From a virus (taxonomy: Duplodnaviria > Heunggongvirae > Uroviricota > Caudoviricetes), in IMG/VR virus record IMGVR_UViG_2839610755_000009: 55,878 nucleotides of DNA; one strand, 5' to 3'. The notes under the pieces were generated by a model. That model searched no databases. It saw nothing but the letters and a program-made list of their open reading frames with translations, and was not told where the DNA came from. Of the stretch, positions 43,314-48,578 are shown in pieces. Position 1 is the stretch's first letter. Every line of letters starts with the position of its first letter. Position numbers and translations under genes: made by a program.

Positions 43314-43730
43314 GTGTCTCAACCACTTTCGGAAATATTGACATGGGATGATGAACAATGGGAGGTATTTGTCCATGATTGGCTTATTGTCTGTAAATCA
43401 GATGATTACCCGTGGAGCGAACGTTTGGGAGGAGCTGGAGATAAAGGTAGAGACGTTGTTGGATATAAATCGGATCCTAACGTAGAAGGTTATTCTTGGG
43501 ATAATTATCAATGCAAACTGTACAAAAAAAGTTTAGGGTTCTCTGATGTTGTAGTTGAGTTTGGAAAACTTATCTATTTTACTCTGAATGGTGATTATCC
43601 CATCCCTCAGAAGTACTTTTTTGTGGCACCCTATGATTTATCTACTACATTTTCTAATTTATTGAAAAATAAAAACGAGCTTAAAAAAGCAGTCCTTGAT
43701 TCATGGGATTCAGCAATTTCAAAAAAATAA
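43314..43730 (+). CDS. cargo ORF A: PD-(D/E)xK-like nuclease domain (candidate effector N-terminus)
   Basis: 138 aa, GTG start 7 nt after AAGGAG; GGAGDKGRDVVGY ... YQCKLY resembles Mrr/NERD-type motif. Confidence 0.5.
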   Translation: MSQPLSEILTWDDEQWEVFVHDWLIVCKSDDYPWSERLGGAGDKGRDVVGYKSDPNVEGYSWDNYQCKLYKKSLGFSDVVVEFGKLIYFTLNGDYPIPQKYFFVAPYDLSTTFSNLLKNKNELKKAVLDSWDSAISKK

Positions 43731-44320
43731 CTAAAAAGATTGATATTCCATTAGATGATGAAATAAAAAAATATATTGAGGATTTTGATTTTAGTATTTT
43801 TTACTCTCTACCCTTATCATTGATTTTAAATGATATTGCAAATACACACCTTTATTTTAAGTACTTTAACGAGCTGTATGTCGTGAGAATCCCTCCAAAT
43901 GAAATTCCAACATACAATTCAAAAAAAGAGTCTGTATATGTTAATGCACGGCTTCAAGCCTATTCAGAGCATGGAAATAAAACTTATAGTTCTTTCTTAG
44001 AGCTTGATGATCCATACAGACGACACTTTAATAATAGTAGAAATGATTTTTATTTTGCATCTTCGCTTGAGGTTTTTGTCCGCGAAGTATTTAAAGATGA
44101 TGTATTCAAAGCATTGAAATGTTACATTTCATCTTCAATTGAACCCGTCTTTTATGAAGACCATAATTATGCATTTATTAGGTGTAATGCAGTCTTGAAG
44201 CAGGCTGTTCTGACACCAATTGCACATTCAGTACTATCAAAAATATGTGAAGCAAATGATAAAAAAGGAATATGCCATCATTTGGTTAATGATGGTGAAG
44301 TAATTTGGACGGTGAGATAA
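43703..44320 (+). CDS. cargo ORF B: probable C-terminal continuation of ORF A
   Basis: 205-aa ORF overlapping A by 28 nt, no SD; joins A by -1 shift at A7 tract. Confidence 0.45.
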   Translation: MGFSNFKKITKKIDIPLDDEIKKYIEDFDFSIFYSLPLSLILNDIANTHLYFKYFNELYVVRIPPNEIPTYNSKKESVYVNARLQAYSEHGNKTYSSFLELDDPYRRHFNNSRNDFYFASSLEVFVREVFKDDVFKALKCYISSSIEPVFYEDHNYAFIRCNAVLKQAVLTPIAHSVLSKICEANDKKGICHHLVNDGEVIWTVR

Positions 44321-44778
44321 TGGTTAGAATTTATAATTCAAGTTTAGAAGTGGCATGTCGAATGGCGAAAGTGCTCGTCGCTATTTATCCTTCTTCATTA
44401 AGCCTTGAACGGCTTATTTGTTTTGATTTTATTTTAGTAAATCTTAAGGATTTTTTACCTGAAGAGATTAGTCTTCATCCTCCAATACCCCGTAGAGATG
44501 CTCAGTTAGCCCTAAAACGAGAGATTGTTTTAGAATCATTGGCTTTGTTGCAAGGCTATGAACTAGCCTCAAAAATTTATACACATCGTGGTTTTGTATA
44601 TAAAGCTTCTGAAAAAACATATGCATTTACAAATTCTCTACATAATGAATATGTTGCGCAGATGGAGCATAATATAAATTTGGTGGTTAAGTTATATAGT
44701 GATATTCCTGATGAGCAGTTGCAATCAATTATAAAAAATAAAATTGGCAAATATGATATGGAATTTAATTATGAATGA
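44320..44778 (+). CDS. cargo ORF C: small helical protein (candidate middle component)
   Basis: 152 aa from ATG overlapping upstream stop (TAATG). Confidence 0.5.
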   Translation: MVRIYNSSLEVACRMAKVLVAIYPSSLSLERLICFDFILVNLKDFLPEEISLHPPIPRRDAQLALKREIVLESLALLQGYELASKIYTHRGFVYKASEKTYAFTNSLHNEYVAQMEHNINLVVKLYSDIPDEQLQSIIKNKIGKYDMEFNYE

Positions 44779-45403
44779 CAATTTTTTTACGTTCAGAAAA
44801 ATAAAGGTAACCGGATTCAATAAATTAGATGCTATAATTGAATTTGGTTCTAAATTGACTATTTTATATGGTGGTTCTGACTCTGGAAAAACATACATAT
44901 ATTATTTGATTCGATATTTATTAGGGAGTGAAAAACTAAAAAATAAAGATATCGATCATGCTCAAGGTTATGATTTAGCCTATCTGGAATTTAATTTTCA
45001 AGGTAGGGTAATGACAATTGAGAGGTCTCTTCAGGATAGCGCCCATTACAGATTATATGATTCGAGCATTGAAAATGTTAGTGAAGCTAATCTGTTGATG
45101 GTTTTTTCCAAAAGTGCTTCGTCTAAAAAGAGTTTTTCATCATACTTTTATGGTAGGTTGAATTTCAAAGAGGCTAAAGTAAGAACAAACTTAAGTAATA
45201 CTCTTCATAAATTTAATCTTAATAATGTTTTTGAATTTTTTTGTATTGATGAATTAAGAGTGTTAACTGAGAAGTCGTTAATTCTTTCTGATATTCCTAG
45301 CGAGGAGACAAAAAGAAAGTCTGAATTTAAATTCCTTTTAACTCAGAGAGATGATACTAACTCCTTAGCAGAAAAACCAAATAAAAAAGCAAGATATTTT
45401 TAA
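44771..45403 (+). CDS. cargo ORF D: ABC/SMC-like ATPase N-terminal head (Walker A)
   Basis: P-loop ILYGGSDSGKTYIY; ATGAATGA overlap with ORF C. Confidence 0.55.
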   Translation: MNDNFFTFRKIKVTGFNKLDAIIEFGSKLTILYGGSDSGKTYIYYLIRYLLGSEKLKNKDIDHAQGYDLAYLEFNFQGRVMTIERSLQDSAHYRLYDSSIENVSEANLLMVFSKSASSKKSFSSYFYGRLNFKEAKVRTNLSNTLHKFNLNNVFEFFCIDELRVLTEKSLILSDIPSEETKRKSEFKFLLTQRDDTNSLAEKPNKKARYF

Positions 45404-45433
45404 AAAAATCAAATTGCAAATATTTATGAGGAA

Positions 45434-46024
45434 TTGAAAGCGCAATTAATTTATCCTGAATATGATCAAGTCATTGTTTCAAGAGAACTTGAGAAAGTAG
45501 AGCAAGATATTGAATCATCGAAAGATATATTGAAAGGTATTGTTGATGCACTTGATGATAAGAAGCAATTATTAAAAGAGTTAAGTGATGAATTATATTC
45601 AATCAGTGACAGGGAAAAATACTTATCATTACTCATTGAAAGATTTAGTCTTCTTAAAGACCAATACTTTATAGATCTACAAAGAATAGATGTTGTATCA
45701 CAGGCGAATTTCTATTTAAATAATTTTGCAGATATTTATTGTGAGTTCTGTAATACACCGCAAAAAAAAGAAAATGAAATATCATATGATGATTGTTTTT
45801 TGTCGTGTAATGCAGAAAAATTGAAAATCAAAAGCCAGCTGAAAGGATTAATTGAATCAATCGGATCTAATGTTCGCGAACATGAATTAATTATGTTAAG
45901 AAAAAATGATGTTAATGAAATTTATCAATCAGAAAAAAGTGATTTTAAGACGTTAGAAGATAAAAATATAAAACAATACATTCATCTCTTGAATCACTTT
46001 ATGAATATAAAGACAATCTTTTAA
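45434..46024 (+). CDS. cargo ORF E: coiled-coil segment of ATPase (in frame with D after a single TAA)
   Basis: 196-aa heptad-rich ORF without ATG start; same frame as D; CEFC...CFLSC cysteine cluster. Confidence 0.45.
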   Translation: MKAQLIYPEYDQVIVSRELEKVEQDIESSKDILKGIVDALDDKKQLLKELSDELYSISDREKYLSLLIERFSLLKDQYFIDLQRIDVVSQANFYLNNFADIYCEFCNTPQKKENEISYDDCFLSCNAEKLKIKSQLKGLIESIGSNVREHELIMLRKNDVNEIYQSEKSDFKTLEDKNIKQYIHLLNHFMNIKTIF

Positions 46025-46590
46025 TGGATCACACAAAACATAGCATTCTATCTTCATTACAAGATAAAGAAGATGATGTTGACGAACTTAAATACTCCGC
46101 CGAGGACTTTGACTCCTTAACAGTAGCTGATTTGTATGATATAGAAATAGCGATGCAAGACTTTTTGAATGATATAAATTTTGAAAATTCTAAAGATAAC
46201 AAAGTGCGATTTGACGAAGATACATATGACTTTAATATCAATGGGAAACGCCGAGGAATGTTTGGTAAAGGTACCCGTGCAGTAATGCATGCTATATTTA
46301 CCATTTGCTTTGCGGAATTTTTATCAAGAAAAGGGAATCCATTCATTGGATTTGTTGTGCTTGATAGTCCATTAGTGACGCACTTTGATAAAGATAGAGG
46401 GGGTTCTCTATCGGATGTTAATAGCGTCAGTCTCAGTGATTCATTTTATCACGCATTAATCAAAAGGGACTATAATTTCCAGATTGTAATTCTTGAGAAT
46501 AAAGGTCCGACGTTCCAAATAAAAATTAATGATGCAAATAAAATCCATAACTTAAATAAGAATGGAAGCTCTGGTTTTTATCCTGTTTAA
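46024..46590 (+). CDS. cargo ORF F: ABC/SMC-like ATPase C-terminal head (Walker B-like)
   Basis: 188 aa; FIGFVVLDSPL hydrophobic-strand-plus-acidic motif; TAATG junction with E. Confidence 0.5.
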   Translation: MDHTKHSILSSLQDKEDDVDELKYSAEDFDSLTVADLYDIEIAMQDFLNDINFENSKDNKVRFDEDTYDFNINGKRRGMFGKGTRAVMHAIFTICFAEFLSRKGNPFIGFVVLDSPLVTHFDKDRGGSLSDVNSVSLSDSFYHALIKRDYNFQIVILENKGPTFQIKINDANKIHNLNKNGSSGFYPV

Positions 46591-46999
46591 TACATTAAAA
46601 ATATAACTGCTAATTGGGGTGCTCGAAATTATATTTCGTTTCGAGCGCTCAGTTCATTTCTAAATAATTTGCAAAATTATTTTGGGTACTTTCGCCTCTA
46701 CACTTCCTTCGGGTGGTTCCACAATAATGGATCTCACCGGCGTTTGATATTTTATAATCTAACCCCTTAGCGCGCGCAGCCCCCCACGCCTGCTCGCTTC
46801 GCTTAACAGACTGGTTTTCATGCATTCCGCAAATCGTCTCAGAAGCCACCACACAAGGGCTTTCGCGTCAAAAATGGTGCATGAGAATCATGCGTTTTCA
46901 TGCGCTATAGACATGCACTCATGCGCTCTCAGGCCAGCCAGGGAAAAGGCGTAAAAAATCCCAGTACTGGACCGGGATTACGTGGGCTTTTTTTGCTAA

Positions 47000-47272
47000 T
47001 CAGACAGGAATTTGCTGACGGCTTGACAGCTTTGACGCGGAGCCATAGCGATTGAGAGTTTGCTGTTGTTTTTCCGGCATTTGTGCTTTCTCTGATTCCT
47101 GTTCATTGCGCCGGGGCTTCATGATTATCGTATCCACACTTTCCAGTGCGGTAAATGTGTAGGAACATTCAAGATTCTGGCACTGATACCATGAGCGTTT
47201 AACCGATGGTGCTTCATAGGCGGAGGTTCTGGCGTGTGCCGTCGTACCGCATTCGGGACATTTAAGTGCCAT
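47000..47272 (-). CDS. Ogr/Delta-type zinc-finger late-gene activator
   Basis: 90 aa; CPECGTTAHARTS...YQCQNLECSYTF matches Ogr/Delta zinc finger. Confidence 0.85.
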   Translation of the reverse strand: MALKCPECGTTAHARTSAYEAPSVKRSWYQCQNLECSYTFTALESVDTIIMKPRRNEQESEKAQMPEKQQQTLNRYGSASKLSSRQQIPV

Positions 47273-47277
47273 TAATA

Positions 47278-47829
47278 TTACTCCTGCATGCCGTTAATGT
47301 AATCCAGACGTTGCTGAAAGCGCAGTTGTTGTGCAGGGGTGTAAGAGCTCTGGCAATCACGAACCATCATGGGGTCAGGCATCACACCGGATTCATCCAG
47401 AATCATACGATAATCCCCGGCAATTTCAGGCGGTGTTATTGCCAGCTGGCGAACCAGAGCATTGCGTAATATACGGGACGCAACGTCAACCCCTCCGCGC
47501 CCCTTCAGGAACGGAGCCAGTGCAGATGTCAGGGCTGCTCCATTCGCCTGCATAAAATTGCTGAGAGCGTCTTCTGTGCAGGCCTCCATCAGTTGATGCT
47601 GCGAGTAAATGCATTCGCGCGCAGCACAGTTAATTTGCCATTTCAGCACATCCAGATGTTCCCGCTGTAATTCGAGCTGTCGAGCATAATCTGCTGGTTT
47701 TTCCATGGCAGTGAGGAGTGATTCTATCTGTTGTTCAACGGCTTTTCGGCTCTCACTATGTCCAGCCCACAGAATACGGGCATTTCTAAAACTGATAAGC
47801 GCTTGGTCTGGAGTGACTCGGGCCATCAT
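47278..47829 (-). CDS. Psu-like (polarity suppression) protein
   Basis: 183 aa, P4 psu position and size. Confidence 0.65.
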   Translation of the reverse strand: MMARVTPDQALISFRNARILWAGHSESRKAVEQQIESLLTAMEKPADYARQLELQREHLDVLKWQINCAARECIYSQHQLMEACTEDALSNFMQANGAALTSALAPFLKGRGGVDVASRILRNALVRQLAITPPEIAGDYRMILDESGVMPDPMMVRDCQSSYTPAQQLRFQQRLDYINGMQE

Positions 47830-48578
47830 ACTGCTTTCTCCTTCTCAGCACGTTCCTGACGAACCTTCATTTTATGCATAGCTGCTGGAGAGAGTTTATT
47901 ACTGAAATCCAGACGGGCCGCATAATCCGGGGCAACTCCCGCCAGTTTAAACACGGGGTCCTGTTCGGGCATCGCATCGTTAGTCAGAGCCGGTCTGGTG
48001 ATATGTTTATGAATAAAATCTTTCAGCAGTGTGTCCGGGTCATTAACTGAATGCACCACACCGACAACTGCGCTGGCTTCCCTGCCCATTGTTGATTTGA
48101 GCAGGCTTAGTGTCTGGATTAGTGCTTTTCCATGCGACTGCATAAAATCTTCCCAGATTTGTTTTGCGCGAATACCCACAAGGGTGTCGTGCGCGTGGAT
48201 ATACTTTCCGGCTAATTCCGCAGCCTCCTGCGGCAAAAGTGCATTTTCGCTTTCCTGAGCCGCCAGCAGCTCATCAAAATCCTCAAGCGTTTCTCGTCCC
48301 AGCGCAATTTCCGTGCGCAGTTTTTTCATTTCCTTTGAGACTACGCCCTGACTTTCACGAAATAGCGTGCGCCACTCCTCATTCAGGGCGTTCGTCGTGG
48401 CTTCCATTTCAGCGCGGCGCTGGCGGATTGTCGCAATATTATCCGCTGCCGCTTTTTGCTGACGACGTGCTTCAAGCCATGCAGATTTGGTGGCATTCAC
48501 TTTCTCAAGCGCCTGTTGCGTCGAAACAGGGATAGAAATTTCAACGATCGGGTTATTGTTCTGTTCTGGGATTGTCAT
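47826..48578 (-). CDS. Sid-like capsid size determination protein
   Basis: 250-aa helical protein upstream of psu in the same operon. Confidence 0.55.
   Translation of the reverse strand: MTIPEQNNNPIVEISIPVSTQQALEKVNATKSAWLEARRQQKAAADNIATIRQRRAEMEATTNALNEEWRTLFRESQGVVSKEMKKLRTEIALGRETLEDFDELLAAQESENALLPQEAAELAGKYIHAHDTLVGIRAKQIWEDFMQSHGKALIQTLSLLKSTMGREASAVVGVVHSVNDPDTLLKDFIHKHITRPALTNDAMPEQDPVFKLAGVAPDYAARLDFSNKLSPAAMHKMKVRQERAEKEKAV

What the first reader, a model, noticed from the sequence alone, without database searches (positions are those of the whole stretch)
46016..46026. T4 run at the E/F junction: one extra T would fuse the coiled-coil to the C-terminal ATPase head
E ends ...KTIF at TAA 46022..46024 and F starts at the overlapping ATG (TAATG). 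With five T instead of four the frame reads ...KTIFLMDHTKHS continuously. Together with the A/B and D/E sites, all three interruptions of this cassette fall in A/T homopolymers, which argues for sequencing artefacts or slippage-prone phase variation rather than independent decay.
Basis: seen in the sequence. Interest (0 to 1): 0.55.

Follow-up and report, generated by a model that had tools for sequence, protein, structure and literature searches.

The report
Decayed Lamassu defence ATPase gene
The E/F "junction" lies inside a dead anti-phage gene (Lamassu lmuB) carried by a P4-like satellite prophage of E. coli O157:H7. The gene was broken by loss of one A about 57 bases upstream of the T run, so this is an ordinary, already annotated pseudogene.

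Summary
The T run and the overlapping TAATG are real, and an added T does join E to F. But the T4 run is not where the gene broke.

- **What the cassette is.** Window 43314-46590 is a type II ("short") Lamassu / ABC-3C defence operon, lmuA-lmuC-lmuB. It sits in the int-psu hotspot of P4-like prophage Sp2 of E. coli O157:H7.
- **Comparison with intact copies.** Five intact cassettes from other bacteria encode a single 606-aa LmuB. Against them the window lacks exactly two bases. One is in lmuA (A7, 43721-43727). The other is in lmuB at an A5 run, 45962-45966, which is A6 in Proteus.
- **The T4 run.** The same sequence, CTT TTA ATG (Leu-Leu-Met), is present in intact genes.
- **The D/E break.** It is an in-frame nonsense substitution (TTA to TAA at 45402), not a frameshift.
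- **Not artefact or phase variation.** None of 309 complete E. coli records carries T5 or A6. The lmuA tract is the same in all 309.
- **Stepwise decay.** O55:H7, O157:H- 493/89 and LSU61 share the two old frameshifts, keep TTA, and mostly carry private lesions.

The Sakai RefSeq record already flags the ATPase as a pseudogene. Low interest.

The parts
42129..43310 (+). P4-type tyrosine integrase (intS) of prophage Sp2; left border of the satellite's defence hotspot
   Evidence: Sakai annotation ECs_0289, with window 43300 = NC_002695.2 311978; ORF
43314..43730 (+). lmuA 5' fragment ('A', 138 aa): N-terminal PD-(D/E)xK / Mrr-like nuclease domain of the Lamassu effector, cut off by a frameshift
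   Evidence: PADLOC LmuA PDLC03852 E 9e-41, profile positions 10-140 of 336. D43, D47 and Q66-C67-K68 are invariant in 27 homologues. Three homologues carry Pfam Mrr_cat PF04471.
43721..43727 (+). A7 tract: site of the one-base deletion that splits lmuA. The A frame reads TC A_AAA_AAA TAA.
   Evidence: Single gap against five intact cassettes, which read AAAGAAAA or AATAAAA. The 96-nt flank matches at >=99% in all 309 E. coli records; one covers only positions 14-96.
43703..44320 (+). lmuA 3' fragment ('B', 205 aa as called): CTD6 domain. By analogy with solved Lamassu complexes it docks LmuA on LmuB/LmuC. The ancestral reading resumes at 43728.
   Evidence: Pfam PF20282 CTD6 3e-28. PADLOC LmuA profile positions 141-333. 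Intact homologues are 335 aa.
44320..44778 (+). lmuC (152 aa), middle component MC2; the only gene of the operon still intact
   Evidence: Pfam PF20288 MC2 6e-30. PADLOC LmuC PDLC03871 2.5e-36. Same length as in the homologous cassettes.
44771..45403 (+). lmuB fragment 'D' (210 aa): N-terminal ATPase head lobe with Walker A GGSDSGKT. Ends at the in-frame TAA 45401-45403 created by T>A at 45402 (Leu211 TTA>TAA).
   Evidence: Pfam AAA_23 / SMC_N. D and E share a frame. Homologues read F-L-K here. TTA is retained in O55:H7, 493/89 and LSU61.
45404..45964 (+). lmuB fragment 'E', ancestral-frame part (codons 212-398): ascending coiled coil, CxxC zinc-hook apex (C324, C327) and first part of the descending coiled coil. 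The ORF as called starts at TTG 45434.
   Evidence: Alignment A1 with invariant C324 and C327. AF2 model of the intact homologue: helices 233-318 and 339-439.
45962..45966 (+). A5 run: the true site of the E/F frameshift (ancestral AAA AAA, Lys398-Lys399; one A lost)
   Evidence: Only gap in lmuB against five intact cassettes; Proteus has A6. Shared by all six E. coli lineages compared. 0 of 309 records have A6.
45965..46024 (+). Out-of-frame tail of E (NIKQYIHLLNHFMNIKTIF + TAA). In the F frame the same DNA encodes the conserved KYKTIHSSLESLYEYKDNLL.
   Evidence: Translations and homologue comparison
46019..46026 (+). The reported T4 run (46019-46022) and TAATG overlap. In the ancestral frame these are CTT TTA ATG = Leu417-Leu418-Met419, unmutated.
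   Evidence: Identical sequence in intact L005, L006 and L007. 0 of 309 E. coli records have T5.
46024..46590 (+). lmuB fragment 'F' (188 aa): end of the descending coiled coil plus the C-terminal head lobe (GKG-R signature-like motif 499-503; deviant Walker B VVLDSP 528-534)
   Evidence: Pfam DUF3732. Invariant G499 K500 G501 R503 D532 S533 P534. AF2 model. Short-Lamassu Walker B hhhhD[Q/S/T/E] is described in PMC12663957.
46617..46650 (+). Stable hairpin after the lmuB stop; probable operon terminator
   Evidence: 13-pair stem found by the terminator scan. RNA fold -19.4 kcal/mol, z = -4.5.
47000..48578 (-). P4 core genes ogr/delta, psu and sid; right border of the hotspot
   Evidence: Sakai and EDL933 annotation. 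Same context in L005 and L006 around intact cassettes.

Best explanation
The E/F junction is an internal scar in a pseudogene. Window 43314-46590 is a type II (short) Lamassu / ABC-3C anti-phage operon, lmuA-lmuC-lmuB. It lies in the int-psu defence hotspot of the P4-like satellite prophage Sp2 of E. coli O157:H7.

When intact, the operon encodes three proteins:
- a 335-aa LmuA (a PD-(D/E)xK, Mrr-like nuclease plus a CTD6 domain);
- a 152-aa LmuC (MC2);
- a 606-aa LmuB, an SMC/Rad50-like ATPase.

In solved Lamassu complexes an LmuB dimer plus LmuC holds LmuA as an inactive monomer. When DNA ends are sensed, LmuA is released and assembles into an active nuclease tetramer.

Three lesions are shown here:
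1. lmuA lost one base at the A7 tract 43721-43727.
2. lmuB lost one A from an A6 run, now A5 at 45962-45966 (Lys398-Lys399, in the middle of the descending coiled-coil helix).
3. In typical O157:H7, lmuB also gained a nonsense substitution, Leu211 TTA to TAA at 45402.

After the A5 deletion the ribosome reads 19 wrong codons and stops at a TAA formed from the last T of Leu418 (TTA) and the first two bases... more exactly, from TTA-ATG read one base out of phase. That TAA overlaps the internal Met419 codon, which gene callers then take as the start of 'F'. The T4 run and the TAATG are therefore unmutated ancestral sequence read in the wrong frame.

Inferred, not shown: the indels arose by replication slippage in A/T runs; the lesions were fixed under relaxed selection; the system no longer defends.
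For: **Family assignment**
- Pfam CTD6, MC2, AAA_23/SMC_N and DUF3732.
- PADLOC LmuA 5.7e-85, LmuC 5.4e-35 and LmuB 3.4e-117 over the full profile length.
- A profile of LmuB homologues hits PDB 9hqu, 9ny5 and 9uxl.
- The AF2 model of intact homologue P0001 has mean pLDDT 86. Its best Foldseek matches are Lamassu LmuB chains 9uxh_F and 9hqu_A.
- RefSeq names the products 'ABC-three component system' proteins. Sakai flags ECs_0293 (D+E+F) as a pseudogene inside 'prophage Sp2, P4-like'.

**Lesion mapping**
- 33 of the 37 LmuB homologues found are single proteins of 594-621 aa.
- The whole-cassette DNA alignment with five intact copies shows only two one-base gaps, at 43723 and 45961/62. It shows TTA in place of TAA at 45402, and an identical T4/TTAATG in L005-L007.
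- The F-frame peptide upstream of the ATG, ESLYEYKDNLL, matches the family consensus.

**Not an artefact or a switch**
- 309 E. coli records carry the cassette. 306 are identical over the 96-nt E/F stretch.
- 0 have A6 and 0 have T5.
- All 309 match the lmuA-tract flank at >=99%.

**Decay**
- O55:H7, O157:H- 493/89 and LSU61 share both frameshifts but keep TTA.
- The lineages other than 493/89 carry private lesions. O55 has -A, and LSU61 has +A, in the A6 run 45933-38. CB9615 and 2013C-4465 have +T in the T7 run 45236-42. CB9615 also has Gln214 to stop.
- 14 of the 16 SNPs are non-synonymous, two of them nonsense.
- A further isolate has deleted fragment D altogether.

**Mechanism of intact systems:** bioRxiv 10.1101/2025.03.14.643221, bioRxiv 10.1101/2025.06.23.660979 and PMC12663957.
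Against: - No intact allele of the E. coli version itself was found. The closest intact LmuB is 86-88% identical (Proteus). The ancestral A6 and the ancestral lmuA tract are therefore inferred from outgroups, and at these sites the outgroups differ from each other (AAAGAAAA vs AATAAAA; GGTAAAAAAT vs GAGCTGAAAT).
- Loss of function is inferred from sequence. No expression or phage-challenge data were examined.
- lmuC remains intact. All fragments keep open frames with possible starts, so some residual or altered activity is not formally excluded.
- The lmuA break is a perfect in-frame A_AAA_AAA heptamer before a stop. It could allow low-level -1 frameshifting.
- O157:H7 genomes are nearly clonal, so tract invariance among them is weaker evidence against slow switching than the record count suggests.
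Confidence: 0.93

Rival explanations
1. The T4 run at the E/F junction is one T short because of a sequencing or assembly error, or because it is a slippage-prone, phase-variable tract. T5 would be the functional ON state joining the coiled coil to the C-terminal head.
For: - An added T does produce one open frame.
- All indels seen in this cassette across lineages lie in A/T runs.
Against: - Three intact homologous genes have the very same T4 and TTAATG.
- The T5 repair leaves 19 residues with no homology, whereas the F frame upstream of the ATG matches the family.
- 0 of 309 complete E. coli records have T5. They include independently sequenced Sakai, EDL933 and many other strains.
- A run of four T is far below the length of known contingency tracts (general knowledge).
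- An in-frame TAA 620 nt upstream would still truncate the protein in typical O157:H7.
Confidence: 0.01
2. D, E and F are a naturally split ATPase. E and F would be translationally coupled through the TAATG overlap, and the pieces would assemble non-covalently into a working LmuB.
For: - Stop/start overlaps such as TAATG are typical of coupled genes.
- PDB holds Rad50 head structures made from truncated chains, for example the 149-aa 1f2t_A seen. That separately expressed Rad50 head halves reassemble is general knowledge.
- PGAP annotates the three pieces as separate CDSs in most records.
Against: - 33 of the 37 homologues recovered are single proteins of 594-621 aa. The other four are truncated, partial or fused sequences. 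None shows a natural split.
- Homology continues 20 codons upstream of the ATG in the F frame.
- The Met codon is internal (LLMD) and present only in the closest relatives.
- The breaks fall inside predicted helices 205-224 and 339-439, not between domains.
- Sister lineages have different break patterns.
- The N:S ratio is 14:2.
Confidence: 0.02
3. Residual, recoding-dependent function. Low-level -1 ribosomal or transcriptional slippage at the A7 of lmuA, and at A runs in lmuB, would restore some full-length protein, so the cassette would be a leaky or attenuated Lamassu system rather than a dead one.
For: - The lmuA break is TC A_AAA_AAA TAA, an in-frame X_XXY_YYZ heptamer followed by a stop. 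A -1 slip there gives exactly the ancestral SKKITKK reading.
- lmuC is intact.
Against: - Typical O157:H7 has an in-frame TAA in lmuB that no frameshift can bypass.
- The A5 site (GAT AAA AAT) is not a canonical slippery heptamer (sequence).
- No homologue uses recoding at these sites; they are simply in frame.
- Private lesions keep accumulating.
Confidence: 0.03

Closest known systems
Type II ('short') Lamassu LmuA-LmuC-LmuB, e.g. Salmonella enterica LmuACB (PDB 9HQU/9HQX) and Vibrio cholerae DdmABC (9NY5, 9UXH)
   Same: - Same gene order.
- LmuB of about 600 aa with Walker A Gx4GKT, deviant Walker B hhhhDS, a coiled coil and one CxxC hook.
- A small LmuC.
- LmuA made of a PD-(D/E)xK-type nuclease plus a C-terminal docking domain.
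- PADLOC LmuA/B/C profiles match end to end.
- The best structural matches of the intact homologue are LmuB chains.
   Different: - The sequences are remote from the solved systems: 14% identity in the Foldseek alignment, and no phmmer hit with a single sequence.
- The domain variants differ. Here they are CTD6 and MC2; V. cholerae has CTD7 and MC3. The effector looks Mrr-like rather than Cap4.
- Above all, this copy is broken in lmuA and twice in lmuB.
ABC-three component (ABC-3C) systems of Krishnan, Burroughs, Iyer and Aravind 2020 (Pfam CTD6 PF20282, MC2 PF20288)
   Same: Direct Pfam matches above the gathering score for CTD6 and MC2. RefSeq product names use this nomenclature.
   Different: ABC-3C is the computational name for the same systems. 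Nothing differs except the pseudogenisation.
Defence hotspot of P4-like satellites between int and psu (Rousset et al. 2022, PMC9122126; de Sousa et al. 2026, PMC13586616)
   Same: The cassette lies between the P4 integrase and ogr/delta-psu-sid. An intact relative occupies the same slot of a P4-like element in L006 and L007.
   Different: PMC13586616 reports that recognisable defence pseudogenes are rare in P4 elements (<1% of their pseudogenes) and that systems are usually swapped before they decay. Here a decayed system has been kept through the whole O55:H7/O157:H7 radiation.
Rad50 / SbcC zinc-hook SMC-like ATPases
   Same: Bipartite ABC head, antiparallel coiled coil and CxxC apex. Profile and fold matches to Rad50 and SMC heads.
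   Different: The coiled coil is much shorter. Walker B is deviant. The partner is a sequestered nuclease effector rather than Mre11/SbcD.
Homopolymer contingency (phase-variable) loci
   Same: The frameshifts sit in A/T mononucleotide runs. One run (45933-45938) shows A5, A6 and A7 alleles in different lineages.
   Different: - The runs are short (4-7 nt).
- Alleles are fixed within lineages and nested with phylogeny.
- No repaired allele exists in 309 records.
- Nonsense substitutions accompany the indels.

Membership tests
Lamassu type II / ABC-3C (short Lamassu) | LmuB: SMC/Rad50-like ABC ATPase of about 600 aa with Walker A Gx4GK[S/T] | tested here: met
   The repaired reading is 606 aa. 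GGSDSGKT at 34-41 is invariant in 27 sequences. PADLOC LmuB PDLC03863 scores 3.4e-117 on the intact homologue, profile positions 3-608 of 610.
Lamassu type II / ABC-3C (short Lamassu) | Deviant Walker B hhhhD[Q/S/T/E], as described for short Lamassu in PMC12663957 | tested here: met
   FVVLDSP, with D532, S533 and P534 invariant. The literature definition was read.
Lamassu type II / ABC-3C (short Lamassu) | Antiparallel coiled coil between the head halves, with an optional CxxC zinc hook | tested here: met
   AF2 model of P0001: helices 233-318 and 339-439 with an apex at 319-338. C324 and C327 are invariant. Top Foldseek hits are LmuB chains 9uxh_F and 9hqu_A.
Lamassu type II / ABC-3C (short Lamassu) | LmuC middle component encoded between lmuA and lmuB | tested here: met
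   Pfam MC2 6e-30 against a cut-off of 26.9 bits. PADLOC LmuC 2.5e-36. Gene order A-C-B.
Lamassu type II / ABC-3C (short Lamassu) | LmuA: N-terminal effector domain plus an ABC-3C C-terminal domain | tested here: met
   CTD6 3e-28. PADLOC LmuA covers A (profile 10-140) and B (profile 141-333). The nuclease assignment rests on invariant D43, D47 and Q66-x-K68 and on Mrr_cat hits in 3 homologues. There was no direct Pfam or PDB hit for the N-terminal domain.
Lamassu type II / ABC-3C (short Lamassu) | All three genes intact, i.e. a complete system as defence-finding tools require | tested here: not met
   lmuA has a one-base deletion. lmuB has a nonsense codon and a one-base deletion. So this is a Lamassu relic by descent, not a functional member.
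Lamassu type II / ABC-3C (short Lamassu) | Protection against phage or plasmids, with effector release on DNA-end sensing | not testable with these tools
   It needs cloning of the native and repaired cassettes followed by phage challenge.
Phase-variable homopolymer (contingency) locus | Tract-length polymorphism among closely related isolates, including in-frame ON alleles | tested here: not met
   0 of 309 records have T5. 0 of 309 have A6. All 309 match the lmuA-tract flank at >=99%.
Phase-variable homopolymer (contingency) locus | The ON allele restores a protein homologous to the family along its whole length | tested here: not met
   The T5 reading keeps 19 non-homologous residues and lowers identity to the homologues. 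The upstream TAA remains.
Naturally split or translationally coupled genes, or programmed frameshift | The split or shift site is conserved in homologues | tested here: not met
   Homologues are single ORFs, and five cassettes are colinear without gaps.
Cargo of the P4-like satellite defence hotspot | Located between the P4 integrase and psu/delta in a P4-like element | tested here: met
   Sakai feature 'prophage Sp2, P4-like phage', with int, ogr/delta, psu, sid, alpA and primase around the cassette. The hotspot definition is in PMC9122126.

The most novel reading that the evidence does not exclude
The relic might not be fully dead. The in-frame A_AAA_AAA-TAA site in lmuA could give low-level -1 frameshifting and so some full-length nuclease effector. 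The intact LmuC and non-covalently associating LmuB fragments (more plausibly in 493/89-like strains, which lack the nonsense codon) could then retain an attenuated or altered activity. That would explain why the cassette has been kept in the P4 hotspot throughout the O55:H7/O157:H7 radiation instead of being swapped out.
Probability: 0.03. Interest if true: 0.4.

Novelty: already known. Interest (0 to 1): 0.12.

Why it matters
Mostly as a correction. The apparent "one T short" junction is a reading-frame illusion, and the true lesion was found only by aligning with intact homologues. In AT-rich genes, a homopolymer next to a stop codon is therefore not evidence of where a frameshift happened.

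- **For annotation.** EDL933-type records list D, E and F as three "hypothetical protein / AAA ATPase" CDSs. They should be one lmuB pseudogene, as Sakai already has it. A and B should be one lmuA pseudogene.
- **Biologically.** O157:H7 and O55:H7 carry only a relic Lamassu system. The lesions form a small nested series along the O55:H7, 493/89, LSU61 and typical O157:H7 lineages. This is one of the reportedly rare cases of a recognisable decayed defence system retained in a P4 hotspot.

Tried and rejected
- **Single-sequence PDB searches.** Searches with the intact LmuB homologue, an intact LmuA homologue and the window's LmuC found nothing. Only the LmuB profile reached solved Lamassu chains. 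The LmuA profile gave no meaningful hit. Pfam and NCBIfam gave no model for the LmuA N-terminal domain. Its nuclease assignment therefore rests on motifs and on Mrr_cat hits in a few homologues.\n- **A lead from Rousset et al. 2022.** A P4 system from O157:H7 FRIK944 was synthesised and found inactive. It turned out to be a cytidine-deaminase system from another P4 element, not this cassette.\n- **Apparent truncations of lmuA.** The short lmuA gene calls in L003 and L005 are gene-calling artefacts of the GTG start. Both are intact 335-aa ORFs.\n- **One variant at the E/F stretch.** ATCC 43888 comes from an assembly riddled with frameshifts in every neighbouring gene, so I discounted it.\n- **Promoter scan.** Not above the shuffled expectation.\n- **tRNA scan.** No tRNA gene was found next to the integrase in 41000-43000.\n- **LSU61.** Its +A at 45932 and the shared -A at 45961 sum to zero. 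I considered that this might restore the frame. The RefSeq annotation ends the D+E CDS between the two sites, so lmuB stays split there.
Full report
**1. The observation**

E (45434-46024) ends ...NIKTIF at TAA 46022-46024, and F begins at the overlapping ATG 46024-46026.

Its last T is the first base of the stop.

The run is not remarkable:
- The F frame is open back to 45964, so a one-base insertion at any of 63 positions (45961-46023) fuses E and F.
- That interval contains three A/T runs of four or more bases.
- The cassette is 31% G+C, with 82 such runs in 3277 nt covering 12% of its bases.

D and E are in the same frame, separated by a single in-frame TAA at 45401-45403. So that interruption is not a tract-length problem.

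**2. What the locus is**

The 3351-nt stretch is 100% identical to E. coli O157:H7 Sakai, EDL933 and many other strains. In Sakai it lies inside the feature 'prophage Sp2, P4-like phage', between the integrase and ogr/delta-psu-sid. D+E+F (ECs_0293) is already annotated there as a pseudogene, 'AAA family ATPase'. PGAP records such as EDL933 list three separate CDSs.

Family evidence:
- Pfam finds CTD6 of ABC-3C systems on B, MC2 on C, AAA_23/SMC_N on D and DUF3732 on F.
- PADLOC profiles assign A+B to LmuA, C to LmuC and the intact homologue of D+E+F to LmuB (E = 3.4e-117, full profile length).
- ABC-3C and type II Lamassu are two names for the same systems (bioRxiv 10.1101/2025.06.23.660979).
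- A profile of the LmuB homologues reaches solved Lamassu LmuB chains and Rad50/SMC heads.
- An AF2 model of the intact Proteus homologue has mean pLDDT 86. It shows a bipartite head, helices 233-318 and 339-439 forming the coiled coil, and an apex carrying the invariant CxxC.
- Its best Foldseek matches are LmuB chains of type II Lamassu (9uxh_F) and of Salmonella LmuACB (9hqu).
- The 606-aa length, Walker A GGSDSGKT, Walker B VVLDS and a single zinc hook fit 'short Lamassu' as defined in PMC12663957.
- LmuA homologues are single proteins, mostly 324-381 aa, with CTD6. A few score for Mrr_cat, and D43, D47 and Q66-x-K68 are invariant. This fits a PD-(D/E)xK nuclease.

**3. Where the gene is actually broken**

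Thirty-three of the 37 LmuB homologues found are single proteins of 594-621 aa. The closest are 606 aa, from Proteus mirabilis (86% identical to the search query; 88% to the repaired reading) and Pantoea alhagi (73%; 76%).

I aligned the whole cassette (3277 nt) with five intact cassettes (L003-L007). The window has exactly two one-base gaps.

| Site (window) | Window | Intact homologues | Lesion |
|---|---|---|---|
| lmuA, 43721-43727 | TCAAA-AAAATAA (A7) | TCAAAGAAAATAA / TCCAATAAAATAA | one base lost |
| lmuB, 45962-45966 | GAAGAT-AAAAATAT (A5) | GGTAAAAAATAT in Proteus (A6) | one A lost |
| lmuB, 45402 | TAA | TTA (Proteus) or CTG; Leu in both | T-to-A nonsense |
| lmuB, 46019-46026 | AATCTTTTAATGGAT (T4) | identical in L005-L007 | none |

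At the T4 run, the intact genes L005-L007 read CTT TTA ATG as Leu-Leu-Met.

In protein terms, the F frame upstream of the ATG encodes KYKTIHSSLESLYEYKDNLL. This matches Proteus KYKKIHLLLESLYEYKDNLL and the family consensus LYE.KE.LL. The E-frame tail NIKQYIHLLNHFMNIKTIF matches nothing.

Repair at the A run gives 87.8% identity to the Proteus protein.

So the frameshift is at Lys398-Lys399, in the middle of the descending coiled-coil helix. 'F' merely starts at internal Met419 of the same helix. The nonsense codon replaces Leu211, in helix 205-224 of the model, just after the N-terminal head lobe and before the long coiled-coil helix.

**4. Artefact, phase variation or decay?**

The cassette occurs in 309 records of 5426 complete E. 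coli genomes, always at 99% identity or more.

| Test | Result |
|---|---|
| 96-nt stretch covering both the A5 and the T4 | 306 of 309 identical |
| Query with A6 | 0 records match perfectly |
| Query with T5 | 0 records match perfectly |
| 96-nt flank of the lmuA tract | all 309 match at >=99% (one covers only positions 14-96) |
| 96-nt stretch at the D/E site | 296 identical, 13 differ |

One of the three exceptions at the E/F stretch (ATCC 43888) is an assembly with frameshifts in every neighbouring gene. LSU61 carries a G-to-A change at 45952 inside the query and probably accounts for a second. The third was not examined.

I aligned six lineages with two outgroups:
- Both one-base deletions are shared by O55:H7 (RM12579, CB9615, 2013C-4465), O157:H- 493/89, LSU61 and typical O157:H7. 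They therefore predate the O55/O157 split.
- TTA to TAA is private to typical O157:H7. In 493/89, D+E is still one 417-aa ORF.
- Other lineages have their own lesions. The three O55:H7-type genomes compared (RM12579, CB9615, 2013C-4465) have -A in the A6 run 45933-38. LSU61 has +A in the same run. CB9615 and 2013C-4465 have +T in the T7 run 45236-42. CB9615 has Gln214 to stop.
- Of 16 SNPs among these lineages, 14 change the amino acid (two to stop) and 2 are silent.
- One sequenced isolate (SRR7251010) has deleted fragment D entirely, fusing lmuC to E.

This pattern is nested and lineage-fixed. It mixes substitutions with indels and shows no sign of purifying selection. That is progressive pseudogene decay.

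That speaks to how the mutations arose. It does not show that the tracts are switches or errors.

**5. How it works, or worked**

This section rests on the cited papers, not on tests made here. In intact type II Lamassu, an LmuB dimer and LmuC hold the C-terminal domain of one LmuA, keeping the nuclease monomeric and inactive. Sensing of DNA ends, modulated by ATP, releases LmuA. It then tetramerises into an active nuclease and aborts infection.

In this copy:
- The nuclease domain (A) is uncoupled from its docking and oligomerisation domain (B).
- LmuB is cut into a head lobe with Walker A, a coiled-coil piece, and a head lobe with Walker B.
- 20 ancestral residues (399-418) are missing from every product.

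I infer that the system is inactive. Only lmuC is intact.

Two residual possibilities are not excluded but are unlikely. One is -1 slippage at the in-frame A_AAA_AAA-TAA of lmuA. The other is non-covalent assembly of the LmuB pieces.

**6. Comparison and novelty**

By descent this is a short type II Lamassu (Mrr-like/CTD6 - MC2 - LmuB with one zinc hook) in the known P4 int-psu hotspot (PMC9122126). Intact relatives sit in the same slot of a P4-like element (L006, L007) and in an unrelated island in Proteus.

It fails the 'complete system' criterion. The family, the hotspot and the pseudogene status of the ATPase are all already on record.

One mildly unusual aspect remains. PMC13586616 finds recognisable defence pseudogenes to be rare in P4 elements and argues for swapping before decay. 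Here a decayed system has persisted through a whole pathogenic lineage.

**7. Verdict**

- This is an ordinary, already annotated pseudogene.
- Interest is low.

Noticed in passing
window 45933-45938: An A6 run inside lmuB shows three alleles among E. coli lineages. It is A5 in O55:H7 (RM12579, CB9615, 2013C-4465), A6 in typical O157:H7 and 493/89, and A7 in LSU61. These are independent slippage events at one tract in a gene that was already dead.
   Followed up: partly
window 43719-43730: The lmuA break reads TC A_AAA_AAA TAA. This is an in-frame canonical -1 slippery heptamer immediately followed by a stop. A -1 slip would recreate exactly the ancestral SKKITKK reading. It may be coincidental, but it could allow leaky full-length LmuA.
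   Followed up: no
L014 2383-3417 (Logan SRR7251010); corresponds to window ~44754-45400: A further decay variant. A deletion of about 646 bp between two similar A-rich stretches removes fragment D and fuses lmuC in frame to fragment E (344-aa product P0027).
   Followed up: partly
L008 (O55:H7 CB9615), equivalent to window 45235-45242 and 45410: CB9615 and 2013C-4465 carry +T in a T7 run. CB9615 also has its own nonsense codon (Gln214 to TAA), three codons from the O157:H7 one. These are independent inactivating hits in sister lineages.
   Followed up: yes
window 46617-46650: A 13-pair hairpin lies 27 nt after the lmuB stop (-19.4 kcal/mol, z = -4.5 against shuffles). It is probably the operon terminator, although its T tract is weak.
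   Followed up: partly
E. coli complete genomes: One of the 310 places holding the cassette is on a record typed as a plasmid, and one genome has two copies. This could be a misassigned contig or a mobilised Sp2 copy.
   Followed up: no
L003/L004 (Proteus mirabilis) 6543-9821: The closest intact cassette (89% nt identity) is not in a P4-like element. It is in a different island near smpB, with a DUF927 protein and another integrase. The same Lamassu module therefore moves between unrelated mobile elements.
   Followed up: no
window 41208-41573 (- strand): An IS3-family transposase remnant lies between prophages Sp1 and Sp2. The Sakai record annotates a partial ISEc48 (window ~41171-41640) with a transposase CDS at ~41208-41561. 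No intact tRNA gene was detected next to the Sp2 integrase in 41000-43000.
   Followed up: partly
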